Origin: Candidatus Nomurabacteria bacterium | GTDB taxonomy: Bacteria > Patescibacteriota > Minisyncoccia > Phycocordibacterales > UBA9973 | Reading direction: 5' to 3' | Length of the DNA stretch: 49,870 bases | NCBI GenBank assembly: GCA_021413905.1 | Contig: JAIOPO010000003.1 | Span: 1-49,870, forward strand | Part shown: positions 3,433 through 49,870 of the stretch, in pieces | Numbering within the stretch: position 1 is the stretch's first letter | How the letters are laid out: the number at the start of each line of letters is the position of its first letter | Translations under genes and position numbers: made by a program | Notes under the pieces: generated by a model | Seen by the model: only the letters and a program-made list of their open reading frames with translations | What the model was told of the DNA's origin: nothing | The model's database searches: none

Positions 3433-5400
3433 ATGAAGAAAAAAGACAGACTGCCGTTTAGCGCTATCAGCGTCGAACCAAATCGCAATACTCTGAATCA
3501 AAACACAGACAATGCAAAACAAAACAATAAACACCACACAGATGCGCATGTTCATAAAAAAGCTCACACAGCAGTAGATGCTCACAAAAAAAGAACTCAA
3601 AAGAGTTCCACTTTTCAATATTCAAAATTTGGAAAAGGAAGACAGCAATCCGGTGGCAGAAAGCCATCTTTCAATAGAAATTCTGATATTAAAGTTCCAA
3701 ATGTAGAGAAAGACGTAATACGTATTATTCCATTAGGTGGTGTTGAAGAAATCGGAAAAAACATGACTGCGATTGAAATCAATGATGATATCGTTGTTAT
3801 TGATGCGGGTATGCATTTCTCTACAGAAGAGACTCCGGGTGTGGACTATGTCATTCCAAATACCACATACTTGGAAGAAAATAAAAGTAAAATCCGAGCA
3901 CTTATAATAACTCACGGACATCTTGATCACGTTGGTGGAGTGCCATTGGTTTTATCTCGTATTGGCAATCCTCCAGTATATTCCAGAAATCTTTCCATCT
4001 TAATGATGAAAAAGCGCGCAGCTGAATTCACTCACCTGCCGGAAATGAAAACTGTCACAGTAGAAAAAGACGAAGTTGTAACTCTAGGTAAAATGCGTAT
4101 CAAATTTTTCGGCGTTACACATACTATACCGGATTCCATGGGTATAATCATAGAAACTCCACATGGCTGGATTGTAAACCCTGGAGATTACAAATTAGAC
4201 CAAGTCGACGGCATTGTCTCTGAATCAGAAGAAAAAGAATACAGTATTTTCGACAAAGCAAAAGTTTTGCTTTTAATGACAGACTCTACAAATATAGAAA
4301 ATGAAGGTTTTTCCTTGCCAGAAATAAAAGTGCATCAAGGATTGGAAAATATGTTAAAGAAAATAAATGGCAGAATAATAATCGCTGCTTTTGCTTCACA
4401 TATTACACGTCTTGCGCATGTAGTAAAAACTGCTGAAGCTTTAGGTAAAAAAATAGCTCTTGATGGCAGAAGCATGAAAACAAATATAGATGTGGCAATA
4501 GAAGCCGAATATTTCAAACCAAAAAAAGGTACTATTATTCCTTTAGAAGAAGTTGATAATTATCCACCAAATAAAATAGTCATACTTATGACAGGCGCTC
4601 AAGGTGAAGAATTTGCTTCACTAAATCGTGCTGCAAATAAAACACATACTAAATTTAAACTTCAAAAAGGTGACACTATTATTCTTTCTGCTTCTATAAT
4701 TCCTGGAAATGAGCTTCAAGTTCAAAAAATGAAAGACGGCTTAACTCGTCAAGGAGTACGCATCATAACATACCGAACAGGTGGTGAAGATTTTGTCCAT
4801 GCGACAGGTCACGGAAACCAAGAAGATATCAAATGGCTTCATAGGAAAACTCATCCGAAATTTTTCATACCAATTCACGGCTGGCATTCAATGCTTGTGC
4901 GACACAAAGAACTTGCGATGGAACTCGGAATGTCCGAAGAAAATATAATAGTGCCGGACAATGGATCTATTATAGAAATTTCACCTGATGGAGAGAAAAT
5001 TTCTATGCGTAAAGAAAAAGCTCCAAGCGGAGCAATGATGGTAGACGGTGCATCTATAAGTGATACTCAAGATGTAGTTATCAGAGATCGTAAAATGCTC
5101 GCGGAAGATGGTATGTTTGTCATCATGGCTTTGATAGATCAAAATACAGGTAGACTAAAAAAATCACCGGACTTGGTATCCAGAGGTTTTGTCTACTTGA
5201 AAGAAAATCAAGAACTCTTGCGACAAGTCAGAATAATAATTAAAAAATCAATCGAAGATGGAACATCTAAAATGAATACAAATGGACAACCTATTGATTT
5301 TGATTATTTGAAAAACGGACTAGGTGAAACTGTCTCAAAATATCTCTATCAAAAAACAGCAAAGAGACCTTTGGTTATACCTGTTATTTTAGCAGTATAA
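3433..5400 (+). CDS. rnj: ribonuclease J (beta-CASP metallo-beta-lactamase) with basic His/Lys-rich N-terminal extension
   Basis: IPLGGVEEIGKNMT, HxHxDH motif ITHGHLDHVGG, beta-CASP and C-terminal domain order typical of RNase J. The first ~90 aa are low complexity (KHHTDAHVHKKAHTAVDAHKKR). Confidence 0.85.
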   Translation: MKKKDRLPFSAISVEPNRNTLNQNTDNAKQNNKHHTDAHVHKKAHTAVDAHKKRTQKSSTFQYSKFGKGRQQSGGRKPSFNRNSDIKVPNVEKDVIRIIPLGGVEEIGKNMTAIEINDDIVVIDAGMHFSTEETPGVDYVIPNTTYLEENKSKIRALIITHGHLDHVGGVPLVLSRIGNPPVYSRNLSILMMKKRAAEFTHLPEMKTVTVEKDEVVTLGKMRIKFFGVTHTIPDSMGIIIETPHGWIVNPGDYKLDQVDGIVSESEEKEYSIFDKAKVLLLMTDSTNIENEGFSLPEIKVHQGLENMLKKINGRIIIAAFASHITRLAHVVKTAEALGKKIALDGRSMKTNIDVAIEAEYFKPKKGTIIPLEEVDNYPPNKIVILMTGAQGEEFASLNRAANKTHTKFKLQKGDTIILSASIIPGNELQVQKMKDGLTRQGVRIITYRTGGEDFVHATGHGNQEDIKWLHRKTHPKFFIPIHGWHSMLVRHKELAMELGMSEENIIVPDNGSIIEISPDGEKISMRKEKAPSGAMMVDGASISDTQDVVIRDRKMLAEDGMFVIMALIDQNTGRLKKSPDLVSRGFVYLKENQELLRQVRIIIKKSIEDGTSKMNTNGQPIDFDYLKNGLGETVSKYLYQKTAKRPLVIPVILAV

Positions 5401-15048: not shown

Positions 15049-16245
15049 ATGAAAATATGTATTTACGCTCATAGTTTTCCACCTATCATTGGTGGTGCCC
15101 AAACTTACCAATATAATCTAGCTATTGGTTTAGGTAAGTTAGGTCATGAGGTCTTAGTTTTGACAGGCGACATACCTGATTCCTTAAAATTAAAGATTAA
15201 AGATTATAAATCATCTTATTTCAAAGTTGTAAGAGTTCCGGGCTTTCGTGAATCTATAAAAATGAAAGCACCCTTTAGAGATTTATTGATCGATTCATTT
15301 AATATTTTAAAAAAGTTTGACCCTGATATTATTTACTCTAATGGATTTATTCCTTGCTTACTAATCTCTATGATAAAAGATAGTTTACGTGCTAAGCATA
15401 TTTTTAGCTACCACTCTACTCCAGAACTCGACGTAAACAAACTGGTTGGTATTTGGCCTGGAAATTTAGAGTTTGAATTGTCTATAGCAAAATTTATTTT
15501 CAAGCAAAGATCTTTTGATGCTTATTTGGCTTGTAGTAACAACTACCTTAATACAGTAAAAAATAATGTTGATGCGAAAATCAAAAACGCACACCGTATT
15601 TATTATGGTGTTGACATGAAAAAGTTTTCTTTTGAGATAAAAGTTAATAGAGAAAAGTATGGCTTCAGCGACAGTGATTTTATTGTTCTTTGCCCTGTTA
15701 GATTTATTGAAAGAAAAGGAATTCTAGATATTTTAAAAGCAGTCAGTATATTAAAGAAAGAAATTCCAAATATAAAGCTTTTAATCCCTACAAGCAAGCT
15801 TTCTACAAATGACAAATTTGCTCAGTCAATCCTAATGTTAATTAAAAAGTTAAAAATAGAAAATTATGTATCTATAAGAGCTGATGAATTTGGTATTGAA
15901 GATATGCCGAAGGTTTACGCTCTTTCAGATATAATGGTTTTTCCTTCATATTCAGAAGGGCTAGGGATAATATCTCTAGAATCAATGTCGATGAAAAAAC
16001 CAGTAGTGGCTACAAATATCGCTGGTATTAATGAAGTTGTTATACACAACAAAACAGGAATGTTAGTAAATATTAAAAGTCCCAAGCAAATTGCTGAATC
16101 AGTTAAGTTAATACATGATGACAAAAATTTACGAGACCGTCTGATTAAAAACGCATATTCTATAACAGAAAAGGAATTTGAATTAAATAAGCAAGTTAAA
16201 AAAGTTGAAAAACTTTTTATTGAAGTATATGGAAAAAATAAATAA
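15049..16245 (+). CDS. glycosyltransferase family 4 (GT-B fold)
   Basis: The C-terminal EX7E region FPSYSEGLGIISLESMSMKKPVVATNIAGINEVV is typical of Glycos_transf_1. Confidence 0.8.
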   Translation: MKICIYAHSFPPIIGGAQTYQYNLAIGLGKLGHEVLVLTGDIPDSLKLKIKDYKSSYFKVVRVPGFRESIKMKAPFRDLLIDSFNILKKFDPDIIYSNGFIPCLLISMIKDSLRAKHIFSYHSTPELDVNKLVGIWPGNLEFELSIAKFIFKQRSFDAYLACSNNYLNTVKNNVDAKIKNAHRIYYGVDMKKFSFEIKVNREKYGFSDSDFIVLCPVRFIERKGILDILKAVSILKKEIPNIKLLIPTSKLSTNDKFAQSILMLIKKLKIENYVSIRADEFGIEDMPKVYALSDIMVFPSYSEGLGIISLESMSMKKPVVATNIAGINEVVIHNKTGMLVNIKSPKQIAESVKLIHDDKNLRDRLIKNAYSITEKEFELNKQVKKVEKLFIEVYGKNK

Positions 16246-16849
16246 TAATTTAGTTAATAAAATAAAAAAATATTTAAAAAATGGGAAAAGGCCATTAATT
16301 ATTGTTATATCGGGTGTTAATGGTGCAGGAAAGACCACGCTAGCTTTTCATATCTCTAATATTTTAGAGATAAAACAACGTGTTAATTTAGGTGCAATTG
16401 TAAAAACATTAATTGCAATGAAGCCAAAAAATAAAGACTTTGCAAAAATGAATAATTATTTTTTGCCTCTTAGCGAAAAAGAAATCCAAAAACAATCTTT
16501 GATTATCAGTAAGGCAACTAATTCGATGATCAAGAAGTACGATGAGGGTGGGGTATCTTGTATTATAGAAGGTGTCCAGTTGCTTACTCGATATTTAGAT
16601 AGTAGAGCAATCCATTTCCATATAGTGGTTAATGATGTAAAAAAATACAAAAAACAATTGAAAAACAGCGATACAAGAAATCCGCGGAATGTGACAGATA
16701 ATGAATTTACGAATTTATTAAAAGTTAACGAAATTCTAAAAACAGAAATGAATTTCCCCACAGTTTATTTATTAGATAACAGTGAGTCGATAAACGCAAT
16801 AATCAACAAAGTATTAAAAGACATAATTATTAATCTTAATTTAAAATAA
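16229..16849 (+). CDS. P-loop kinase (2-phosphoglycerate-kinase-like / AAA_33-type)
   Basis: Walker A IIVISGVNGAGKTTLA. Small alpha/beta protein. The ATG at 16229 overlaps the GT4 stop by 17 nt (the track TTG start is at 16205). Confidence 0.55.
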   Translation: MEKINNNLVNKIKKYLKNGKRPLIIVISGVNGAGKTTLAFHISNILEIKQRVNLGAIVKTLIAMKPKNKDFAKMNNYFLPLSEKEIQKQSLIISKATNSMIKKYDEGGVSCIIEGVQLLTRYLDSRAIHFHIVVNDVKKYKKQLKNSDTRNPRNVTDNEFTNLLKVNEILKTEMNFPTVYLLDNSESINAIINKVLKDIIINLNLK

Positions 16850-39131: not shown

Positions 39132-41369
39132 TTAGATAATATCAAGTTCCATAAAAAATGTAGAACCTTTGCCTGGACCGTCAGACTCAACCCAAATATG
39201 CCCCTTATGAGCTTCTACAATTTGTTTTGCTAAATACAAACCAAGCCCAGAACCACTGGTATTCATTTTCATTCCGTCTCCACGTGCAAATTTCTTAAAC
39301 AAAGTTTCACGTATTTCTTCGGTCATTCCCATACCAGTATCAGAAACAGCCAATAAAATATTTTTTAAATTCTCATCTTTAGTCAGAGTCACTTTTATAC
39401 TTCCGGTTTTAGTATATTTAACAGAATTATCAATAAGATTTAAAACAACTTGTCGTATTTTTTCCATATCACCGTTTACTGTATATGGAGATTTATTATC
39501 AGTTTCAAAAGTTAATTTCAATCCTTTCTTTTCAGCATTTAAAGCTAAATCACTAGAAATATCTTTAACTTGTTTTTCAATATCAAAAGGACTCATGACA
39601 TATTGCATACCACCTTGCTCTATCTTGGCGACATTTAACAAATCTTCTACAACCATGGCCAAATGCTGACTTGATTGAAACACTCGATCTATGGCTTCTT
39701 TTTGTTTATCGGTAATAGCTCCAAAATCCCCTTCCAAAAGCATAGAAGAATACCCTTTAATAGCAGTAAGAGGGCTACGAAGCTGATGTGAAGCCAAAGA
39801 CAAGAATTCTGTTTTTAATTTATCAAGTGATTTTAATTTCTCATTTGCATCTTGTAAATTTTTATACAAAAATGATTTATCCAAAGCAACAGCAATAACA
39901 TCTACGAAACTTTTAATAGCATCTTTCTCATGAGCATTTAAAGATTCATAATCTCTATTGAAACCCAAAATCAACCCGCCCAAAACCTGACTTTGTGTTT
40001 GTAAAGGAAATAACATCACAGTCTTAATATGAGATTCTTGGACCAATCTTTCCAAATACTGAGGTTTCATCAATCCTCCCCATACATCTGTAATATTGTT
40101 AGTTAAATTTGATTTTTTCTCATAAATAGATTGATTAAAAAATGCATGCTTTGAAACATTCGTAATCACAACATCCTTTAAATAAAAACCAAAACTTTCA
40201 ACTGTTTTTATAAGTCTTTCTGATTTTGAAAAATTAATAGGTGTTAGAGAATCTGAATTTGAATCAAAAATCAAAACTCCAGCTGTTTCCAAATTTAAAT
40301 CAATACGTATAGCACTTGTAATTTTTTCTGACAAATTATTTACATCCAAAGAGAGTAATGATATTTGATACAATTTTCGAAGCAAAGAAAGTGTCTTGTT
40401 TTTGACAGACATTTCCACGTTTTGTTTATACAAATCTTGAGTTAAATTTTCTAATTTATTTTTCTCCTCTTCTTTTCCCAGATTACGAATCAAGAAATAT
40501 CCGAAAAATAAAATACCTATCAAGGAAACAATATTTAATATTTTACTACTCAATGTCTGAGTAAATGCAAATTGAGCTCCTGTCAAAATAACTAAAGCAA
40601 AAACCAAGGCCTTTGATGCTACCAACTGAATATTAAACATTTGTTTTTTAACAATAAGACGAATTAGAAAAATTGCCAAAATAGGCATACCAAACAATCC
40701 AAATTGAGCCATATTCCAATTTTCAGTCAATGAACCGACAATATTCCCTGAAGCAAAAAGTAAAAGAAAAAGGGATATACCTACAGACAATGAAGATATA
40801 AATTTTCTTTCTTCTTTATCTTTACAAGATATATATTTTTTAATTGCAAAAATTATGATAATAATGGAAATTAAAATTTCCAAACCATAAGCATAATATA
40901 AAGCCATAGGCCCTTCTATGGAAAGACAAGTGGACATATCAAAACCTATCAAATTAAAAATTGTCGGCAATAATAAAATCAAAGGAAGAAAAGCTGAAAA
41001 TAAAATAATTTTAAATTTATTCGGTAAATCATTTTTATTCAACATGACATAAATCAAATACAAACTGCCCACAAATACAGCCGGCTCAAATAAAAGTAAA
41101 GCTGACCAAGAGAACATTATGATATCTGGTCTATTTGAAGCCCAAATCACAGAATCAAGACCGAGCCAACACGCAAAAGCAGACAAAGTAAAGAGTAATA
41201 CATTATTTGCTAAATTTTTCTTGCCGTTCATGTAAATAAAAATCCCCAACAACAAAGAAATGACCAAAATTGGTAAATGAGAATAATACACTATCGCCGG
41301 TACATTAGGCGAAAAAAGCAAGAAATGAGGAGAAGGAATATTGCAAAATAATGTTGGATAAGAAAACAT
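39132..41369 (-). CDS. sensor histidine kinase (multi-TM N-terminal sensor, GAF-like region, HisKA, HATPase_c)
   Basis: H-box FLSLASHQLRSPLTAIKGY, N-box NLIDNSVKYT, G-boxes VSDTGMGM and GSGLGLYLAK. About 8 N-terminal TM segments. Confidence 0.85.
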   Translation of the reverse strand: MFSYPTLFCNIPSPHFLLFSPNVPAIVYYSHLPILVISLLLGIFIYMNGKKNLANNVLLFTLSAFACWLGLDSVIWASNRPDIIMFSWSALLLFEPAVFVGSLYLIYVMLNKNDLPNKFKIILFSAFLPLILLLPTIFNLIGFDMSTCLSIEGPMALYYAYGLEILISIIIIIFAIKKYISCKDKEERKFISSLSVGISLFLLLFASGNIVGSLTENWNMAQFGLFGMPILAIFLIRLIVKKQMFNIQLVASKALVFALVILTGAQFAFTQTLSSKILNIVSLIGILFFGYFLIRNLGKEEEKNKLENLTQDLYKQNVEMSVKNKTLSLLRKLYQISLLSLDVNNLSEKITSAIRIDLNLETAGVLIFDSNSDSLTPINFSKSERLIKTVESFGFYLKDVVITNVSKHAFFNQSIYEKKSNLTNNITDVWGGLMKPQYLERLVQESHIKTVMLFPLQTQSQVLGGLILGFNRDYESLNAHEKDAIKSFVDVIAVALDKSFLYKNLQDANEKLKSLDKLKTEFLSLASHQLRSPLTAIKGYSSMLLEGDFGAITDKQKEAIDRVFQSSQHLAMVVEDLLNVAKIEQGGMQYVMSPFDIEKQVKDISSDLALNAEKKGLKLTFETDNKSPYTVNGDMEKIRQVVLNLIDNSVKYTKTGSIKVTLTKDENLKNILLAVSDTGMGMTEEIRETLFKKFARGDGMKMNTSGSGLGLYLAKQIVEAHKGHIWVESDGPGKGSTFFMELDII

Positions 41370-41545
41370 ATTATGTATTTTTCTGAAGATTAATAATTGT
41401 AAAATCTTTATTTATTATATATTTATTAAAAGAAAAAAATATTGAAATAAAACCAAAAATAATAATGGTAAAGAAAAATATTTTCGCACTTCGATTAACT
41501 TGTATATCCATTGATACAATTATATATTTTATGAGAATAAAATGC

Positions 41546-41577
41546 AAAAAAAGCTGATTGTAAAAATCAGCTTTTTG
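41546..41577. terminator. bidirectional intrinsic terminator
   Basis: Stem agctgatt/aatcagct with loop gtaaa, flanked by A6 and T5 runs. Immediately downstream of the 41591-42157 gene. Confidence 0.7.
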
Positions 41578-41590
41578 TCTTATCTTTTTA

Positions 41591-42157
41591 TTAAGTGCTT
41601 CGTCCCAATATCTTTAGACAAAGCAATTCAAAGGATCTTTTTAAGGAGGTTTTGTTTAAAGACAATCCACCTGAAAGATCTCTTGACTCTATTACAATCA
41701 AATTATTGGACATTTCTTTTTCTACAAAAGAAAGTAGCGAAATGCAATCTTGCCCTACCAACTTATGAGGAACTTGCCCATAAATCAAAGCCAAGTAATT
41801 TTTATTATGAACAATATTTTCAATATGAAAAGTCTTTTTAACATTTTCATACTGGAAATGAAATTCAAAAACATCAGACGGTATACCAAAACTTTTAGCC
41901 ATACCTAAAATTTGATCACGTGGAATATTGCATTCGCCCACAATACAAATCTTTAATCTTTTATTTTTTTCAAAAAAATCAGCGACAAAATCTGATAAAA
42001 TTTCTTTTTTTCTTTCTGGTCCAGAGAGTAAAATATCAGATTGTTTGCTAATTACAATATCTAAAATCAACTCAAGATTCACAACCGCTAATTCTTTTTT
42101 TTCAGCAAGAGAATAAATCTGCATCAATTTAGATGCAATGCGCTCAAGACTAACCAT
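41591..42157 (-). CDS. hypothetical protein
   Basis: 188-aa ORF with its own terminator. The LKICIVGECNIPRDQILGMAKSFGI region looks like a small alpha/beta (Rossmann-like) unit. No confident family. Confidence 0.4.
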   Translation of the reverse strand: MVSLERIASKLMQIYSLAEKKELAVVNLELILDIVISKQSDILLSGPERKKEILSDFVADFFEKNKRLKICIVGECNIPRDQILGMAKSFGIPSDVFEFHFQYENVKKTFHIENIVHNKNYLALIYGQVPHKLVGQDCISLLSFVEKEMSNNLIVIESRDLSGGLSLNKTSLKRSFELLCLKILGRST

Positions 42158-42239
42158 ATTTCCTCCTTTTAAGAACGTTAATTACCTATTGTTATAATAC
42201 AATATTATATAGAAAAAAGCAAGAAGATATTTTATTAAC

Positions 42240-42545
42240 CTATTTTAAACTAGATGGAATATCTGCTTCTGGTAATTCCGCAATCAGATCTTGGACGGAT
42301 TCGCGAGAAACTTCGTGTGAGAGTTTACCGAAAAGTTTTTCATATTGCAAAACCAAATTATCCAAAACATCTTTTGCATTTCCATCGAAAGCAAACTCCC
42401 CTTTTTGTTTGTTGATTATATGCAAACCGGGAACTTTGAAAGCTTCATCCCAAGCCAAAGAACCGACAATATTCGCTTGTTCCATAATAATACGAAATGA
42501 AATCTGTGAGAAAATATTTAATTCATTTGTATTATTTTTTTCCAT
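42240..42545 (-). CDS. hypothetical protein
   Basis: 101-aa ORF, acidic, no recognisable motif. Confidence 0.4.
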   Translation of the reverse strand: MEKNNTNELNIFSQISFRIIMEQANIVGSLAWDEAFKVPGLHIINKQKGEFAFDGNAKDVLDNLVLQYEKLFGKLSHEVSRESVQDLIAELPEADIPSSLK

Positions 42546-42556
42546 AATTTTTTAAG

Positions 42557-43372
42557 CTAACTATTTTTTATTTTGTTAAAGGTTATACCGAAGTAAAGAA
42601 GCGCCAAGGTCATTAAAGCATAAGATAAACAATAAAAATAATCATTTATACCTCCGACTTCCCATATTCCCAAATTTTGCTGGTATAAAAAAATACAATC
42701 AGATAAATATTGAAAAATTAGAGCAACCAACAATAAAAGGACTGGTTTTTTCATCACCCCACCTAAAATATTTCTTGAAAAGAATAAAACCATAAATGTA
42801 ATAGAAACATAGATAGATTGTCCGACAGGATAAGCTAAATCGAGAAATAATTTTAAATAATTATTCCAATCAAAATAATGATTCTTTATTAGGAAAAAAT
42901 AAGATAAAAATAAAAATAATATAATTGTTAAGTATATAAAAACATGATTTATAATATTTTTTTTATATATCTTAAAACCACTAGCTTTAAACAACAAAAT
43001 AACCCCATAAATATAAGCCAGAACACTACCAAAGAAACCAATATCTGCAATTGATGGATATGGTACATCAACATGTAAAACTAAATCATAAAAACTAAAA
43101 ATAATCTGTCCTAAACTTTGAAGAAACAAACCAATACTAAAAAACATTATAGATCTACCAATAAGACTATTGTAACCACCCCATGACCTAGAAACAATAA
43201 GACCAACGATACCACCAATTAAAGCTAAAACCTGATATAAATCAGTCCAATTTAACTCTGAATTTGAACTTTTAAAAATATTCAATAAAGGTAAATCTAA
43301 CCAAGAAAGAGTAAAAAATAGAACTAAAAATAGAACTAAGGATAAAACTAATTTGAATTGATTTTTATTCAT
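42557..43372 (-). CDS. polytopic membrane protein, unknown function
   Basis: 271 aa, about 8 hydrophobic segments. Confidence 0.45.
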   Translation of the reverse strand: MNKNQFKLVLSLVLFLVLFFTLSWLDLPLLNIFKSSNSELNWTDLYQVLALIGGIVGLIVSRSWGGYNSLIGRSIMFFSIGLFLQSLGQIIFSFYDLVLHVDVPYPSIADIGFFGSVLAYIYGVILLFKASGFKIYKKNIINHVFIYLTIILFLFLSYFFLIKNHYFDWNNYLKLFLDLAYPVGQSIYVSITFMVLFFSRNILGGVMKKPVLLLLVALIFQYLSDCIFLYQQNLGIWEVGGINDYFYCLSYALMTLALLYFGITFNKIKNS

Positions 43373-43376
43373 AAGA

Positions 43377-44282
43377 CTATTTTAACATGATTAAATATTT
43401 TTTCAAAAACAAACCAGTGGAAAAACTTTTTTTATTTTGTTTTAAACCAGGTAAACCAAGATCTTGTTCAAAATTTAAAAATTTATACCCTTTATTTAAA
43501 AGTAATTTAGCATCTTCCTGGATCATCCAATCATATATACCAGGATAAGAATAATTTGCTTTTGCAAAATGAGAAATAACATAAATGTCTGATATTGTTT
43601 CATAGATTGCATAGCCTGCAATCAAATTATCAACAAATAAAAAAGTACTTATTGTGTTATTATAAATTTTTGTATTTAAAAATTTATTAATAGCATTAAA
43701 TTCATTGCTATAATCAAAAGATTTATCAATCTCCTTTTTTTTAATTTCCCACAATTTATTCACTTCTTTTATATAACTTTTAGATTGAACTGAATTTAGA
43801 TCTAAAATTTTATAATAAAAACTATTACTTTCTGCAAACTTTTTTATTACTTTTCTTTTTTTTAAAAAAAATTCTCCTTCTAATTCAGAAAGTGATTTAA
43901 TATCATACTCATAATCAAAATGATCCCTGTCTTCTTGGATTTTGAACTTAGTATTATCTAAATCTTTAATAGAATCTTCGGGAACTAATTTCAGCTCAAG
44001 TTTTAATCCTTCTTTTTTTGAAAGTTCAAGCAATTCTTCTGCTGTTTCATTTACTTTATTATTTCCCAAAAAAGAATAAAAAGGTTCACCTGTAACATAG
44101 TCAGTGAACTTTACAACTAAATTATCATTCAATTGAGAAATCAGCATATCCCCCTTTATATCCCAAGACCACATTGAAACAAAATTAAAATCCGAATATG
44201 GCGGATATTTGTGAGTGATTTTTTCGACGTCTTCTTTGTCGGAAAGTTCCAAGTTCTTAAATTGTGGAAATTGAGGAAGCAT
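43377..44282 (-). CDS. DUF2156 domain protein (MprF C-terminal-like, GNAT-fold aminoacyl-lipid synthase-like)
   Basis: The N-terminal LELSDKEDVEKITHKYPPYSDFNFVSMWSWD and the C-terminal FEQDLGLPGLKQNKKSF resemble the DUF2156 pattern. Confidence 0.45.
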   Translation of the reverse strand: MLPQFPQFKNLELSDKEDVEKITHKYPPYSDFNFVSMWSWDIKGDMLISQLNDNLVVKFTDYVTGEPFYSFLGNNKVNETAEELLELSKKEGLKLELKLVPEDSIKDLDNTKFKIQEDRDHFDYEYDIKSLSELEGEFFLKKRKVIKKFAESNSFYYKILDLNSVQSKSYIKEVNKLWEIKKKEIDKSFDYSNEFNAINKFLNTKIYNNTISTFLFVDNLIAGYAIYETISDIYVISHFAKANYSYPGIYDWMIQEDAKLLLNKGYKFLNFEQDLGLPGLKQNKKSFSTGLFLKKYLIMLK

Positions 44283-44333
44283 AAAGCGAAAAAGAGCAGG
44301 CTCTTTAACACGAGTTCATTATACCATATATAT

Positions 44334-45242
44334 TTAAAAATACAAAAAGTAACTGCCGAGTAATAAAATAATGATTGCAATAAATTTTTGAATTATTATT
44401 TCTTTGTTTAAAGTTTCTTTTCCAAAGAATGGAAAAAATAATGTGATAATTATACCTAAAACAAAAACACACATTGGTTGAAAAGCTTCAACCAATAAAA
44501 CCAAAGCTGTCGCAGGTGCCAAAGTAATAGCTTTAGAAATTAAAATATTTCCACCCAAAGTAATAGCCTCCACAGCCAAACTCCAACTTATCATACTCTT
44601 TTTATTTTTATTTTTAAAAATACTTAAAAAATCTTGTCGGTAATTCTTTATACACAAGAAACATAAACCGGCAAAAAAAGTACCCATCAATTGCCAAAAA
44701 ATGGAAACAGAAAAACTGTCGACCGCACCAGCTCGAAATAAAATCTGATATACTGCAAACAAAAAAGAAGCGAGAGCTATGAAATAAAAAGCTTTTTTAT
44801 TAAATTTTAAATTTTTAAAATCCAAAGAAATAAAAATTGCACCCAAGACAACTATCAATCCTCCTAACATTTGTGAATTTGATAATTTTTCACCAAGAAA
44901 AAAATAACCTAAAATAAAAGCGAAAAATGGAATCAGCTGGAATACCGGTGTTACGGTAGAAGCTTCGCCTTCATTTAAAGCAAATAAATAACACAATGTT
45001 GCCAACGCGGAAAGGAAACCTGAAATTAACAATAAAACTTTATGATGTAAATCAATAAATAAAACATGAGAATTAAAGATAAAAACAAAAATTAAAACAA
45101 AAAAAGAAGAAAGAGAAGAAAAAGTAATAAGTCCTTTAATACCCATACCTGTCCCAAATTTATTAATCAAATATTTATCAATATGATTTGCAAAAGCCCA
45201 TAAAAGCGGAGCCCATATAGCGATCAAAAGCCAGTGATACAT
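44334..45242 (-). CDS. EamA/DMT family transporter
   Basis: 302 aa, 10 TM segments in two EamA-like halves. Confidence 0.65.
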   Translation of the reverse strand: MYHWLLIAIWAPLLWAFANHIDKYLINKFGTGMGIKGLITFSSLSSFFVLIFVFIFNSHVLFIDLHHKVLLLISGFLSALATLCYLFALNEGEASTVTPVFQLIPFFAFILGYFFLGEKLSNSQMLGGLIVVLGAIFISLDFKNLKFNKKAFYFIALASFLFAVYQILFRAGAVDSFSVSIFWQLMGTFFAGLCFLCIKNYRQDFLSIFKNKNKKSMISWSLAVEAITLGGNILISKAITLAPATALVLLVEAFQPMCVFVLGIIITLFFPFFGKETLNKEIIIQKFIAIIILLLGSYFLYF

Positions 45243-45256
45243 AAAAATATTCTAAC

Positions 45257-45284
45257 ACAAAAAACCATATTTTAATATATGGTT
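45257..45284 (-). terminator. intrinsic terminator after 5S rRNA
   Basis: Minus-strand AACCAUAU-AUUAAA-AUAUGGUU followed by UUUUUU. Confidence 0.6.
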
Positions 45285-45307
45285 AAATTTTTAGTAAATC
45301 AAATACT

Positions 45308-45421
<114 letters not shown>

Positions 45422-45803
45422 AAAACTTGATTTCACCCGCCTTTAGCGGGTTTGGTTTTTTGCGCCTCTTCGGCGCATCCGCTGTTGAGGCGGGTTTGTG
45501 ATTTCCAAATTTCTTAACAGGAATCGAAACATTAGTACTTCTCAGCTGAACGCATTACTGCGCTTACACTTAAAGCCTATCAACGTGATCATCTCTCACG
45601 GTTCTTAACGATTCCTAATCTTAAAGCTGGCTTCCCTCTTAGATGCTTTCAGAGGTTATCCATTCCCGACATAGCTACCGAGCAGTGCCCTTGGCAGGAC
45701 AGCTCGTACACCAGAGGTCAGTTCACCCCGGTCCTCTCGTACTAGGGGCAAATCTTCTCAAGAATCAACGAGTGCAGTAGATAGGAGACCAACCTGTCTC
45801 ACG

Positions 45804-46122
45804 CATCTACGTCACACATTACTGTGTGGATTGGACTATAGCTTCATCCTGAAAAAGTTTTCACTTTTGAAGGACTGCTGACGTTTAGTCTCTACGGGTG
45901 AATTAAAAATTCTTCCCTCGGTATTGCCCTCACTTACGTGATTGGGTTCCACCGATTTTAGTCAGCTTGTTACTATATATTTCTATACAGCACCGCCGTG
46001 ATGTGTATTTTTCAACACATGGTTAATTTCGATTAAAACAGTTTAAGTTCATAATATTTTGAACTCTTAATTCCTCTGAGGATTCAGACTATCCTGAAGT
46101 TAATATAAATATTAACTGAAGG
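45804..46122 (-). ncRNA. ORF-less group I intron at 23S position equivalent to E. coli U2593 (the I-CreI-type site)
   Basis: Interrupts GGGTTCAGACCGT^CGTGAGACAGG. The 5' exon ends in U and the intron ends in G. R-like GTAGAGACTAAACG and S-like AAGCTATAGTCC core elements. P3 GCTGAC/GTCAGC. P8 with a GAAA loop and P9 with a GUAA loop. Confidence 0.7.
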
Positions 46123-46706
46123 ACGGTCTGAACCCAGCTCGCGTACCTTTTTAATTGGCGAACAGCCAAACGCTTGGCAGCTTCTCCACCGCCGCGCTAA
46201 GGTGAGCCGACATCGAGGTGCCGAACTCCGCCGTCGATATGAACTCTTGGGCGGAATGCTTGAGATGTACCTCTTACAGTCAAGCCAGCTTGTGCCTATA
46301 CACTATCGGCACGGTTTCCATTCGCGCCTAGCTGACCTTTAAACCCCTCCTTTACTCTTTAGGAGGGTACAGCCCCAGTAAAACTATCCGCCAGATACTG
46401 TCTCAATACGTTTTTGCCGTATTGGTTAGAACATGCCTTCAAAAAGAATGGTATTTCACTGTTGAGTATTACAAAGCCGAGACCTTGCACATAACCTCTC
46501 CCATCTATTCTACGCAGTCTAAAAACATGCTCAATATCAAGTTATAGTAAAGCTTCTAGGGTCTTTTCGTCTAACTGCACTTAGCCGGCATCTTCACCGG
46601 CATTGTATTTTCACCGAGCTGGTCCTCGAGACAGTTTCCCAGTCATTACACCATTCGTGCGCGTCGGAACTTACCCGACAAGGTATTTCGCTACCTTAGG
46701 ACCGTT

Positions 46707-47521
46707 CTTTTCTTAAGGTATGAATGTGTACATATTGTTTACCAAATAAAAACTTAAAACGTGTTAACTTTATGTCGCCATAAAGATCGGACTATATCAT
46801 CGTTTTCAAATCGTCGACTCCAATAATTGATTTGAAACCGTCTTGCGTTTAGTCTCTGAGGATTCTTCTACTTTATCACATCTGATAAATTGTATTTTCG
46901 TTTTCTTCCTTTTCCTTCATTTAGAGTTTCTCTTAATTGAAGTATTTTTTCAAATCCTTCTTTTTTAAGATGTTCTCCTTCTGACATAATTTCAACAATT
47001 TGTTTAAAAATTGAAAAATTTGTCTTTTTTCTTGAAGAAATAAAATTAAACTTAATAAAGAATGGAATAATTTTTTCTTTTAGTGAAGCAACATTTGTCG
47101 CTTCATAATAGACCACTCCATCTTGTCTTTCTCGTAGAGTGCCACATCCAAGGATTTTTTTAATCCAAGCAAGTATAACTCTGTCTTTTTGAGAAATATT
47201 AAACGAAGCTGTTATTTTCCATTCACCTACATAGTCATTTCTTTTTTTAAGAGAAACATTAAAGCTCCCCTCACCGTCAGTAAAACCGGCTATATAATAT
47301 CCATCTTTTGGATTAATATTTTTAAGCCATTTTTCTTCTTGATTCATTTAGAAATTGTAGTAGAAGTCTTTCCTGCTGATTGTCTGCATGATTAAATTGT
47401 CACGGCAACATCGACATGTGCTCGTATTAATCAATACTTTTTTATCCCTTGATATTATCTCGGGACCCAGAGTTTCCAGCATTTGGCAAGATTTATTTGC
47501 GTAACTACAACGGTTTTGTCT
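46707..47521 (-). mobile_element. group I intron with LAGLIDADG homing endonuclease ORF at 23S position equivalent to E. coli 1917
   Basis: Interrupts GGCCGTAACTAT^AACGGTCCTAAGG. The internal guide CCGUU-GUAGUUAC (47501-47513) pairs with the 3' exon AACGG (P10) and the 5' exon GUAACUAU (P1, with a terminal U-G wobble). R-like CAGAGACTAAACG (46846-46858), S-like GATATAGTCC (46789-46798). The intron ends in G. Confidence 0.85.
46868..47347 (-). CDS. LAGLIDADG homing endonuclease (single-motif, I-CreI-like size)
   Basis: YIAGFTDGEGSFNVSL motif. 159 aa, wholly inside the intron. Confidence 0.85.
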   Translation of the reverse strand: MNQEEKWLKNINPKDGYYIAGFTDGEGSFNVSLKKRNDYVGEWKITASFNISQKDRVILAWIKKILGCGTLRERQDGVVYYEATNVASLKEKIIPFFIKFNFISSRKKTNFSIFKQIVEIMSEGEHLKKEGFEKILQLRETLNEGKGRKRKYNLSDVIK

Positions 47522-48974
47522 ATAGTTACGGCCGACATTCACCAGGGCTTATATCAGTCACCATTAATATTGCTATTAGCAACGCCGATATTTGACCTTC
47601 TGGCATTGGTCAGGTGTCACCCCCTATACATCCTCTTGCGAGTTCGCAGGGAGCTGTGTTTTTGGTAAACAGTTGCCAGGAAAACTTTCGCTGCGCCCCA
47701 GCCGTCTTGCGACTCTGGGGAAGCCTTATCCCGAAGTTACGGCTGCTTTTTTGCCGAGTTCCTTGAGGACCACTCACTCGTTCGTCTTGGTCTACTCGAC
47801 CTGATCACCTGTGTCGGTTTGCGGTACGGTTTCCATATTCATAAGTTTAGAGACTTTTCTTGGAAGCGTGCTTTGTATCATTATCCTATCCCTAGAGATA
47901 AAACTTTTTGCTTCTCTTTCATGTGCCATCAAAGGCATTACGCGGATTTTCCTACGTAACATAATCAAGACACAAACTTCAAATCCAATAATGAGCGATA
48001 CATACTACACTCCGTCATCCCATCACAAAATACGGAAGTCAGGGAATATTAACCCTGTGTCCATCGAGTACGGTTTTCACCATCCCCTTAGGCCCGACTA
48101 ACCCTTGGCTGATTGACATTACCAAGGAAACCTTGATCTTTCGACGTGATGCGTTCTCAGCATCATTGCGGTTACTTGTGCCAACATTCTTACTTCCAAA
48201 CGCTCCAAAGGCTCTCACGAGTCCTTCTTCACTGCAGATTGGAACACTCTCCTACCACTCCGTTTTGCCTAAGCAAAACGAAATCCTCAAATTCGGTATT
48301 ATACTTAGCCCCAATTATTTTCGGCGCAGAATCTCTAGATGAGTGAGCTGTTACGCTATCTTTAAAGGATGGCTGCTTCTAAGCCAACCTCCTCATTGTC
48401 TGAGAAATTCCACCTCCTTGTCTTACACTTAGTATAAATTTAGGGACCTTATTTTGAGATCCGGGCTGTTTCCCTTTTGGCTAATGGAGCTTCGCCCCCA
48501 TAGCCTAACTGCCAAGCTATAATCTCTGGTATTCGTAGTTTGGTAGGTTTCACGAGATTGCTCCCTGTTGAAACCTTCCAGTGCTCTACCCCCAGAGGAA
48601 ACACTTGACGCTAGCCCTAAAGCTATTTCGGAGAGAACCAGCTATTACCAGGTTCGATTAGCTTTTCACTCCTTACCACAGGTCATCCGATGACGTTGTA
48701 CGATCAACCGGTTCGGGCCTCCATAATTCTTTCGAATTACTTCACCCTGCCCATGGCAAGCTCACCTGGCTTCGGGTCTTATGCATACTACCAATTACGC
48801 GCTATTAACACTCGGTTTCCCTTGGGCTTCGCTGTTTTAGCCAGCTTAGCCAAGCAGTATGAATAAACTCGTTGGCTCATTCTTCAATAGGCACGCTGTC
48901 GTTCACCCGAAGGCGAACTTCAACTCCTTGTAGACATACGGTTTCAGGTCTATTTCACCGCCCTAATCGGGCTG

Positions 48975-49011
<37 letters not shown>

Positions 49012-49701
49012 ATCTTTAAGAGTATTTAGCCTTGCCAGTTAGTTCTGGCAGATTCCCCCCGGCTATTGATGTCCTGGGGTACTCAAGAATAACAATAAAA
49101 GAGATAAATTATTTTCGTTTACGGGACTATCACCCCCTACGGTTTTGCTTTCCAGCAAATTCAACTAATAATTTATTTTTTGACTCTTCTAGTAAACTAC
49201 ATTGTTATCTTACAACCCCGTAGTATTGCTACCACGGTTTGGGCTTCTTCCTTTTCGCTCGCCGCTACTTGGGAAATACATATTTGTCTCTATTCCTCCT
49301 GGTACTGAGATGTTTCACTTCCCAGGGTCTGCTTCGTTATCATAAAGATAAAGATTATTGAGGTTTACTCAATAGGGTTTCCCCATTCGGAAATCTCCGG
49401 ATCAAAGGTTGCTAGGCACCTCCCCGAAGCTTATCGCAGCAACGCCACGTCCTTCATCGCCTCTTAAAGTCAAGGCATCCACCGTACGCCCTTAAATTTC
49501 CTGTTAAGAAATTTGAAAATCACAATTTTATTAAACTGACTTTTCAGGTCAGAAAGTCCCATCTGATATGGGACAAGCTCTCTTTTCCGGACCGCTCCGT
49601 ACTTTCGAAAGCTGCTCTGTCTGGGGTTGCGAAAAGACCTCTCAATTCTAATTGCCCCGACAGTTTTAAGTTTTCAATATTCAAGCCTTTACTTACCAAA
49701 T

Positions 49702-49723
49702 AAAAAACCGCCTTTGGGGCGGC
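49702..49723 (-). terminator. intrinsic terminator upstream of the 23S gene
   Basis: Minus-strand GCCGCC-CCAAA-GGCGGU followed by UUUUUAUUU. Confidence 0.6.
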
Positions 49724-49798
49724 TTATACAGACAAAAGAAAGTCTGCTATAGCCACCTTTTGAACTTGTTTTTTATAATTACCATACTGATAAGTCAT

Positions 49799-49827
49799 AT
49801 ACTATACTAAAGCCAAAAAGAAGTCAA
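49799..49827 (-). promoter_or_regulatory. near-consensus sigma70-type promoter candidate
   Basis: Minus strand TTGACT (49827-49822), 17-nt spacer, TAGTAT (49804-49799). Confidence 0.35.
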
Positions 49828-49870
49828 ATCCTTACCCCTACCCTAAAATGGGTATAACTTGGGGATAAAA

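What the first reader, a model, noticed from the sequence alone, without database searches (positions are those of the whole stretch)
46240..46300. 23S rRNA gene appears to lack about 90 nt of domain V, including the GGGGAUAACAGGCUGAU peptidyl-transferase strand
On the rRNA sense strand the gene reads ...GCTGGCTTGACTGTAAGAGGTACATCTCAAGC ATTCCGCCCAAGAGTTCATATCGACGGCGG...
- In E. coli and B. subtilis, about 90 nt lie between the GACUGCGAGC...GCGAGC hairpin and ACCGCCCAAGAG. Those nucleotides cover helices 86-88, the 3' strand of H74 and the universally conserved GGGGAUAACAGGCUGAU, which carries G2447, A2450, A2451 and C2452.
- I cannot find GATAACAG (ctgttatc on the plus strand) anywhere in 45507-49514.
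- The exon between the two introns is 584 nt, against 676 nt for E. coli 1918-2593. That 92-nt deficit is consistent with the missing segment.
- The flanking PTC elements are intact: CCUCGAUGUCGGCUC, the A-loop region and GGGUUCAGACCGU/CGUGAGACAG.

Possible explanations:
- an assembly or consensus deletion
- a decaying rRNA copy
- a segment supplied from elsewhere (fragmented rRNA)
- a truly divergent centre, which would be remarkable

The reference sequences were recalled from memory, so the alignment needs confirmation.
Basis: partly seen in the sequence, partly recalled or inferred. Interest (0 to 1): 0.6.

Follow-up and report, generated by a model that had tools for sequence, protein, structure and literature searches.

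The report
Likely assembly gap in 23S rRNA
The only 23S rRNA gene of this tiny genome lacks exactly 91 bases of the ribosome's catalytic centre that all its relatives keep, which is most likely an assembly error and not real biology.

Summary
The 23S rRNA gene (window 45513-49506, minus strand) lacks exactly 91 nt between window 46257 and 46256 (sense ...CTCAAGCA|TTCCGCCC...).

- The missing stretch is Rfam LSU model positions 2396-2485: two hairpins, the 3' strands of long-range helices, the GAUAACAG central-loop strand and the first bases of the next helix.
- All 16 related genomes that span the site have the segment. 15 carry 91 nt by alignment or coordinates, and one carries about 90 by coordinates.
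- The rest of the gene shows no decay: 0 substitutions at columns invariant in 7 relatives.
- It is the only LSU gene in a 691-kb, 7-contig genome.
- The segment is nowhere else in the assembly.
- The junction occurs in no other rRNA gene in two public collections.

A ribosome without this strand cannot work, so the best reading is an assembly or consensus artefact in a sample that seems to hold several near-identical strains. I put this at about 0.8. The one read-level look used contigs only and neither confirmed nor refuted the junction. Raw-read mapping or PCR across it would settle the matter. Interest is low.

The parts
45513..49506 (-). 23S (LSU) rRNA gene, the only copy in the 691-kb genome, interrupted by two insertions
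   Evidence: RF02541, 2068.7 bits, model 1-2925. It is the single LSU match in G000.
46256..46257 (-). Junction of the 91-nt gap. In sense orientation, 46257 (A) is followed directly by 46256 (T). Relatives have 91 nt between them.
   Evidence: BLAST split at query 454|455 with 91 extra bases in relatives. MAFFT shows a 91-column gap against 14 of 14 relatives. Model positions 2396-2485 are missing.
46122..46705 (-). Exon between the two insertions, 584 nt. It holds the gap and is otherwise intact.
   Evidence: Boundaries come from alignment to G034, which has no insertion at either site. There are 0 differences at columns invariant in 7 relatives.
46706..47520 (-). It is a probable group I intron with a homing-endonuclease ORF.
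   Evidence: Absent in G034 and G027. G013 and G006 have about 220-230 nt there. There is a weak RF00028 match at 46768-46945: 31.6 bits, E 4.4e-6, below the gathering score.
46868..47347 (-). 159-aa ORF, a LAGLIDADG_1 homing endonuclease, inside insertion 1
   Evidence: ORF list. Pfam PF00961, E 6.1e-20, 72.5 bits.
45804..46121 (-). Insertion 2 (318 nt), a group I intron without an ORF, at the site numbered E. coli 2593
   Evidence: RF00028 at 45812-46010, 67.7 bits, above the gathering score. Absent in G034.
45311..45417 (-). 5S rRNA gene just downstream of the 23S gene
   Evidence: RF00001, 74.5 bits.

Best explanation
The 91-nt gap is an error of assembly, consensus or curation in this metagenome-derived genome. 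It is not a property of the organism's ribosome. The real gene most likely carries the same 91 nt as its congeners.

The rRNA region is a place where several near-identical strains, and the conserved cores of unrelated bacteria in the same sample, share sequence. Assembly graphs tangle there, contigs break there, and joins or polishing steps go wrong there.

Shown:
- the gap exists;
- it is unique to this assembly;
- the gene is otherwise intact;
- no second copy or stray fragment exists in the assembly.

Inferred:
- the junction is not present in the cells' DNA;
- the exact step that made the error. The absence of any microhomology at the edges argues against a simple repeat collapse, so an end-to-end join of two contigs or a polishing or curation step is more likely.
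For: 1. All relatives that span the site keep the segment.
- 15 genomes have both flanks matched. The extra length is 91 nt in 14 of them and about 90 in G017, by coordinates.
- 14 of 14 aligned relatives have exactly 91 nt.
- G029 holds the whole segment at a contig end.
- These relatives include same-genus genomes 93-96% identical across exon 2.

2. There is no decay. G000 shows 0 differences at columns invariant in 7 relatives over exon 2. The 132 nt 3' of the junction are 100% identical to G004, G001 and G007.

3. This is the only LSU gene in a genome scored 100% complete. The deleted part includes the universally conserved GAUAACAG central-loop strand. By established knowledge (recalled), it carries the E. 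coli 2447-2452 peptidyl-transferase nucleotides. A cell with only this gene should not be viable.

4. The junction word occurs in no other rRNA gene. There were 5 hits in genome contigs and 2 in metagenome contigs, and all 7 are non-rRNA chance matches.

5. The region is hard to assemble.
- The contig ends 364 nt upstream of the 23S gene, and the 16S gene lies on another contig.
- Several relatives' contigs start or stop inside this conserved stretch: G035 1 nt before the junction, also G018, G021, G038, G007 and G015.

6. In the likely source run X1, adjacent contigs that match the window perfectly have depths of 7.87, 28 and 21.5. No listed contig bridges 46228-46301. This is a weak hint of several co-occurring strains that differ in intron content.

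7. The rest of the assembly is clean. ORFs of 100 aa or more cover 90% of it, so this is a local fault and not general poor quality.
Against: - No read-level evidence shows that the junction is false. One search used Logan contigs, not reads. It listed neither a contig bridging the junction nor an X1 contig running from the flanks into this genus's form of the missing segment. Only 6 loose ends per run and the longest pieces are printed.
- The gap has no microhomology or direct repeat at its edges. The commonest de Bruijn-graph collapse therefore does not explain it, and the step that produced it is unknown.
- X1 holds 0.94 of the sampled words of the 10-kb stretch. That neither includes nor excludes the roughly 30 junction words.
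- The total Rfam score is not diagnostic. G000 scores 2068.7 bits. G006 scores 2254 and G034 2447.1, but G027, which has the segment, scores only 2031.8.
Confidence: 0.8

Rival explanations
1. The deletion is real in DNA but sits in a non-functional copy. That copy could be a recently arisen defective allele carried next to intact copies, either in polyploid cells or in a second, collapsed rRNA locus. It could also belong to a minor, doomed subpopulation that the assembler happened to follow.
For: - The junction has no repeat at its edges, as expected for a real illegitimate-recombination or break-repair deletion.
- The perfectly conserved flanks fit a very recent event.
- Depths of adjacent perfect contigs in X1 differ (7.87, 21.5 and 28), so more than one allele of this region exists in the sample.
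- Homing endonucleases cut this gene in this lineage. There is a LAGLIDADG ORF here, and relatives have further insertions 40 nt 3' of the gap. They could provide breaks; this is inference.
Against: - Only one LSU locus is in the assembly.
- No contig is shown bridging the junction.
- The junction is absent from two public collections.
Confidence: 0.12
2. The rRNA is fragmented. The 91-nt piece, or a larger piece containing it, is encoded elsewhere in DNA that was not assembled, and it joins the ribosome in trans.
For: - The genome is in 7 contigs, so some DNA is missing.
- The gap edges fall at or near helix boundaries in the model structure.
- Scrambled, fragmented rRNA genes exist in some organelles (recalled knowledge).
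Against: - No copy of the segment is in any of the 7 contigs. A fuzzy search for the 17-mer found none with up to 3 mismatches. blastn-short with 14 relatives' segments gave only 12-17-nt chance matches. The nhmmer profile gave no hit at E<=10.
- Every relative has the segment in place, including congeners 93-96% identical. The fragmentation would therefore have to be extremely recent.
- The gap cuts 3-4 nt into the 5' strand of the next helix and does not fall at a loop.
Confidence: 0.03
3. The organism truly makes ribosomes without this strand, that is, it has a radically divergent peptidyl-transferase centre.
For: Only the bare sequence as assembled. This group of bacteria is known for reduced ribosomes (PMC9297842, passages read).
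Against: - The rRNA losses reported for the group are surface helices, not the core (PMC9297842, passages).
- The remaining centre elements are canonical and identical to those of relatives that keep the strand. There is no compensating change anywhere.
Confidence: 0.01

Closest known systems
Local misassembly or consensus errors in rRNA operons of metagenome-assembled genomes
   Same: - The gap lies in the most conserved, multi-organism-shared part of the genome.
- The contig ends next to the operon.
- Relatives' contigs break in the same stretch.
- The sample shows several depths for adjacent identical pieces.
   Different: There is no repeat or microhomology at the gap edges, so the usual repeat-collapse mechanism does not apply. 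The error has not been shown at read level.
Natural rRNA reductions in CPR/Patescibacteria (Tsurumaki et al. 2022, PMC9297842; passages read)
   Same: This genome also looks like that group: small (691 kb), with insertions bearing LAGLIDADG genes in the 23S gene. The group does lack some rRNA regions.
   Different: The reported gaps are lineage-wide and lie on the ribosome surface (the passage names h9 and h63 for 23S). This gap is private to one assembly and removes the catalytic core.
Fragmented or scrambled rRNA genes (organelles of some protists and algae; recalled, not checked here)
   Same: A contiguous block of the rRNA is absent from its normal place.
   Different: The piece is not found anywhere else in the assembly, and all relatives have a contiguous gene.
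Group I introns with homing endonucleases at 23S positions 1917 and 2593 in CPR bacteria (PMC11270868; passages read)
   Same: The two insertions that flank the affected exon sit at these published sites. One carries a LAGLIDADG_1 ORF.
   Different: These introns are ordinary for the group and do not explain the 91-nt gap, which lies 135 nt from the nearer intron (46122 versus 46256).

Membership tests
Bacterial LSU rRNA (Rfam RF02541) | Full-length match to the covariance model above the gathering score | tested here: met
   2068.7 bits against a cut-off of 50, model 1-2925.
Bacterial LSU rRNA (Rfam RF02541) | The central-loop strand of domain V (consensus GGGGAUAACAGGCug) and its neighbouring helices are present | tested here: not met
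   Model positions 2396-2485 are absent. The motif is absent from the window and the genome.
Lineage-typical rRNA reduction (CPR 'gap regions') | The same region is missing in related genomes | tested here: not met
   All 16 relatives that span the site have the segment.
Lineage-typical rRNA reduction (CPR 'gap regions') | The missing region lies on the ribosome surface | tested here: not met
   The missing part includes the conserved central-loop strand by the model structure. Its location in the catalytic core is established knowledge (recalled). The published gaps are surface helices.
rRNA pseudogene or decaying copy | Substitutions at otherwise invariant positions | tested here: not met
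   0 differences at columns invariant in 7 relatives across exon 2.
rRNA pseudogene or decaying copy | A second, intact copy in the same genome | tested here: not met
   One LSU match in G000. The assembly is in 7 contigs, so a collapsed or unassembled copy cannot be excluded.
Fragmented or scrambled rRNA gene | The missing piece is encoded elsewhere in the genome | tested here: not met
   The motif search, blastn-short and the nhmmer profile over all 7 contigs gave only chance matches.
Assembly artefact | Reads do not support the junction and show the intact sequence instead | tested here: inconclusive
   Only Logan contigs could be laid. The perfect X1 contigs stop at 46227 and start at 46302. 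No bridging contig and no own-type loose end is listed.
Group I intron (RF00028), insertion 2 | Match above the gathering score, and absence from an intron-less homologue | tested here: met
   67.7 bits against a cut-off of 50. G034 joins the two exons without it.

The most novel reading that the evidence does not exclude
The 91 nt are truly absent from this organism's single 23S gene. The catalytic-centre strand is supplied in trans from a small separate gene in unassembled DNA. That would be a fragmented bacterial 23S rRNA split inside the peptidyl-transferase centre.
Probability: 0.03. Interest if true: 0.9.

Novelty: not a real feature. Interest (0 to 1): 0.12.

Why it matters
If the gap were real, a free-standing bacterial genome without the central peptidyl-transferase strand in its only 23S gene would overturn what is known about the ribosome core.

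As it stands, the value is practical:
- This species-representative genome carries a faulty 23S sequence. The fault would damage LSU alignments, phylogenies, probe or primer design and any survey of rRNA reduction in small-genome bacteria.
- It also shows that a clean, repeat-free deletion can sit in an otherwise high-quality assembly (100% completeness, 90% coding).

Tried and rejected
- **Read-level test.** The best holder, X1 (0.94 of words), and three small-share runs were laid, but all are kept as contigs. Perfect X1 contigs cover 45776-46227 and 46302-46692, and nothing listed bridges the junction. The printed X1 loose ends at 46254 and 46257 are other bacteria's canonical form. X6 shows this genus's form (5 contigs, loose end at 46256). 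This gives no verdict on the junction.
- **Junction word in public collections.** All 7 hits are non-rRNA chance matches. The genome's own record may have been left out of the scan.
- **Search for the segment elsewhere in G000.** Only chance matches were found. One exact 10-mer on C5 is about what is expected for 1.4 Mb of two-strand sequence. I did not inspect its context.
- **Total covariance-model score as a measure of integrity.** It is not diagnostic, because G027 has the segment and scores lower than G000.
- **Microhomology or direct repeat at the gap edges.** None was found, so repeat collapse is rejected as the mechanism.
- **G012 contig C16.** Its 60 nt upstream of the junction equivalent were not fetched or examined.
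- **Organism name.** Not determined. 'CPR-like' rests on genome size, the rRNA insertions and the literature, not on a taxonomic test.

Full report
**What is there**

Rfam finds a full-length bacterial LSU rRNA gene on the minus strand at window 45513-49506 (2068.7 bits). A 5S gene follows at 45311-45417, and a group I intron lies at 45812-46010.

The window is the whole of contig C3 of a 691,430-base genome in 7 contigs, scored 100% complete. This is its only LSU match. The 16S gene lies apart on contig C1, at 15091-16660.

**Checking the observation**

- A covariance-model scan of 46120-46480 alone shows two 37-position blocks of the model deleted. The model stretch that follows, ending in the GGGGAUAACAGGCug consensus, is almost unmatched.
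- A BLAST search of exon 2 against 41 genomes (G000 plus 40 relatives) matched 25 of them, G000 included.
- In every one of the 15 relatives where both sides are matched, the match splits at query 454|455, which is window 46257|46256.
- By coordinates the relative carries 91 extra bases there in 14 of the 15: G013, G006, G004, G015, G001, G030, G034, G027, G032, G031, G007, G002, G025 and G039. G017 carries about 90.
- I aligned 14 of these 15. G017's contig was not given a locus. G000 shows one clean 91-column gap, and all 14 relatives have exactly 91 nt, ending in GGGATAACAGGCT(A/G)G.
- Partial contigs agree. G029 has the whole segment at a contig end. G018 and G038 have its last bases. G035's contig starts one base before the junction equivalent, with a G as in the intact form.
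- The remaining matched relatives (G012, G020, G021, G033, G036) do not span the site or were not examined there.

**Anatomy of the gap**

Aligning the intact relative G013 to the model places the missing bases at model positions 2396-2485 plus one inserted base. By the model's structure line, this stretch comprises:
- a short hairpin;
- the 3' side of a two-pair long-range helix;
- a longer hairpin;
- the 3' strands of two long-range helices;
- the unpaired GAUAACAG strand;
- the first 3-4 bases of the 5' strand of the next helix.

From recalled E. coli numbering this is roughly 2370-2459. That covers helices 87 and 88, the 3' strand of helix 74, the central-loop strand with G2447-C2452, and the start of helix 89.

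The gap has no microhomology at its edges. The left flank ends ...AAGCA and the lost segment ends ...GCTAG. The lost segment begins GGTGG and the right flank begins TTCCG.

**Surroundings**

Comparison with G034, which has no insertion at either site, sets the exon between the two insertions at 46122-46705.

- Insertion 1 (about 46706-47520) holds a 159-aa ORF at 46868-47347 with a LAGLIDADG_1 domain (E 6.1e-20). It also has a weak group I match at 31.6 bits, below the gathering score.
- Insertion 2 (45804-46121) is a group I intron above the gathering score.
- Passages of PMC11270868 name 23S positions 1917 and 2593 among the sites where CPR bacteria carry LAGLIDADG_1-encoding insertions. These introns are therefore ordinary for such genomes.

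**Is it a decaying gene?**

No sign of decay was found.
- Across exon 2, aligned with 7 relatives (G013, G006, G004, G001, G030, G027, G034), 437 columns are invariant among the relatives.
- G000 has a gap at 58 of these. They lie in the 91-nt gap and in the first 14 columns, which I did not extract for G000.
- G000 differs at 0 of the remaining 379 columns.
- The 132 nt 3' of the junction are 100% identical to G004, G001 and G007.
- Whole-gene model scores are not diagnostic. G000 scores 2068.7 bits, G006 2254 and G034 2447.1, but G027, which has the segment, scores 2031.8.

**Is the piece elsewhere?**

Not in the assembly.
- The 17-nt motif with up to 3 mismatches is absent from all 7 contigs.
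- blastn-short with the 14 relatives' segments gives only 12-17-nt chance matches, and an nhmmer profile of them finds nothing at E<=10.
- DNA that was not assembled cannot be searched.

**Is the junction seen anywhere else?**

A 20-letter junction pattern found 5 places in one-genome-per-species contigs and 2 in JGI metagenome contigs. All 7 are non-rRNA chance matches. The scans may leave out the window's own record.

**Reads**

One run, X1 (a freshwater metagenome), holds 0.94 of the sampled words of window 39871-49870 and is probably the source. It is kept only as Logan contigs.

Laid on 45500-47000:
- X1 contigs that match the window perfectly cover 45649-45802 (depth 27.8), 45776-46227 (21.5), 46302-46692 (28) and 46663-47000 (7.87).
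- No listed piece bridges 46228-46301.
- No joint or insertion is listed at the junction for X1.
- The printed X1 loose ends at 46254 and 46257 are the canonical form of other bacteria.
- In run X6, five contigs leave the window at 46256 into CTAGCCTGTTATCCC, which is this genus's intact form.
- Only six loose ends per run and the longest pieces are printed, so this neither confirms nor refutes the junction.
- The unequal depths of adjacent perfect contigs are a weak hint that several near-identical strains with different intron content share the sample.

**Reading**

The gene is the genome's only 23S gene and is otherwise flawless. It lacks a strand that every relative keeps and that, by established knowledge, forms the catalytic centre. 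The simplest account is an error in assembly, joining, polishing or curation. I put this at about 0.8.

The fault is local: ORFs of 100 aa or more cover 90% of the genome. The exact step is unknown, and the lack of any repeat at the edges rules out a simple repeat collapse.

The rivals are:
- a real, very recent deletion in a non-functional allele that coexists with intact copies (about 0.12);
- a fragment encoded in unassembled DNA (about 0.03);
- a truly divergent centre (about 0.01).

The rRNA reductions published for CPR bacteria are surface helices shared across lineages (PMC9297842, passages). They are not private losses of the core.

**Verdict**

The feature is most likely not biological, and interest is low. 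Raw-read mapping or a PCR across 46257|46256 would settle it.

Noticed in passing
Loci of G031 (L013), G012 (contig C16) and G039 (L024); equivalent to window about 46215/46216: Three relatives carry a further insertion in the 23S gene at query 495/496, about 40 nt 3' of the gap. By coordinates the insertions are about 312, 832 and 774 nt. G000 has none there.
   Followed up: no
L040 (G006) 4690-5178; equivalent to window 48260-48282: G006 has about 466 extra nt in 23S domain III where G000 has a short hairpin. This may be another insertion sequence.
   Followed up: no
L039 (G013) 3928-4149 and L040 (G006) 3721-3952; equivalent to window 46706-47520: At the site of G000's 815-nt, ORF-bearing insertion, these congeners have only about 220-230 nt (an ORF-less form). 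G027 and G034 have none. This pattern of homing-endonuclease gain and loss is the one described in PMC11270868.
   Followed up: partly
L010 (G029) 1-100: G029 reads GGGATCACAGG where all other relatives have GGGATAACAGG. The change is at a universally conserved base, within 30 nt of a contig end, and is probably another assembly error.
   Followed up: no
Contig ends of G035, G018, G021, G038, G007 and G015: Many relatives' contigs start or stop inside this conserved stretch of domain V. G035's contig begins one base before the junction equivalent. Assemblies of this group commonly break exactly here.
   Followed up: partly
Window 49507-49870 and G000 C1:15091-16660: The contig ends 364 nt upstream of the 23S gene. 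The 16S gene (1344.8 bits, no insertion) is on another contig, so it is either unlinked from 23S-5S or separated by an assembly break.
   Followed up: partly
Window 45500-47000 in run X1: Adjacent contigs identical to the window have k-mer depths of 7.87 (insertion 1), 28 (exon 2) and 21.5 (insertion 2 plus flanks). This suggests at least three co-occurring strains that differ in intron content.
   Followed up: no
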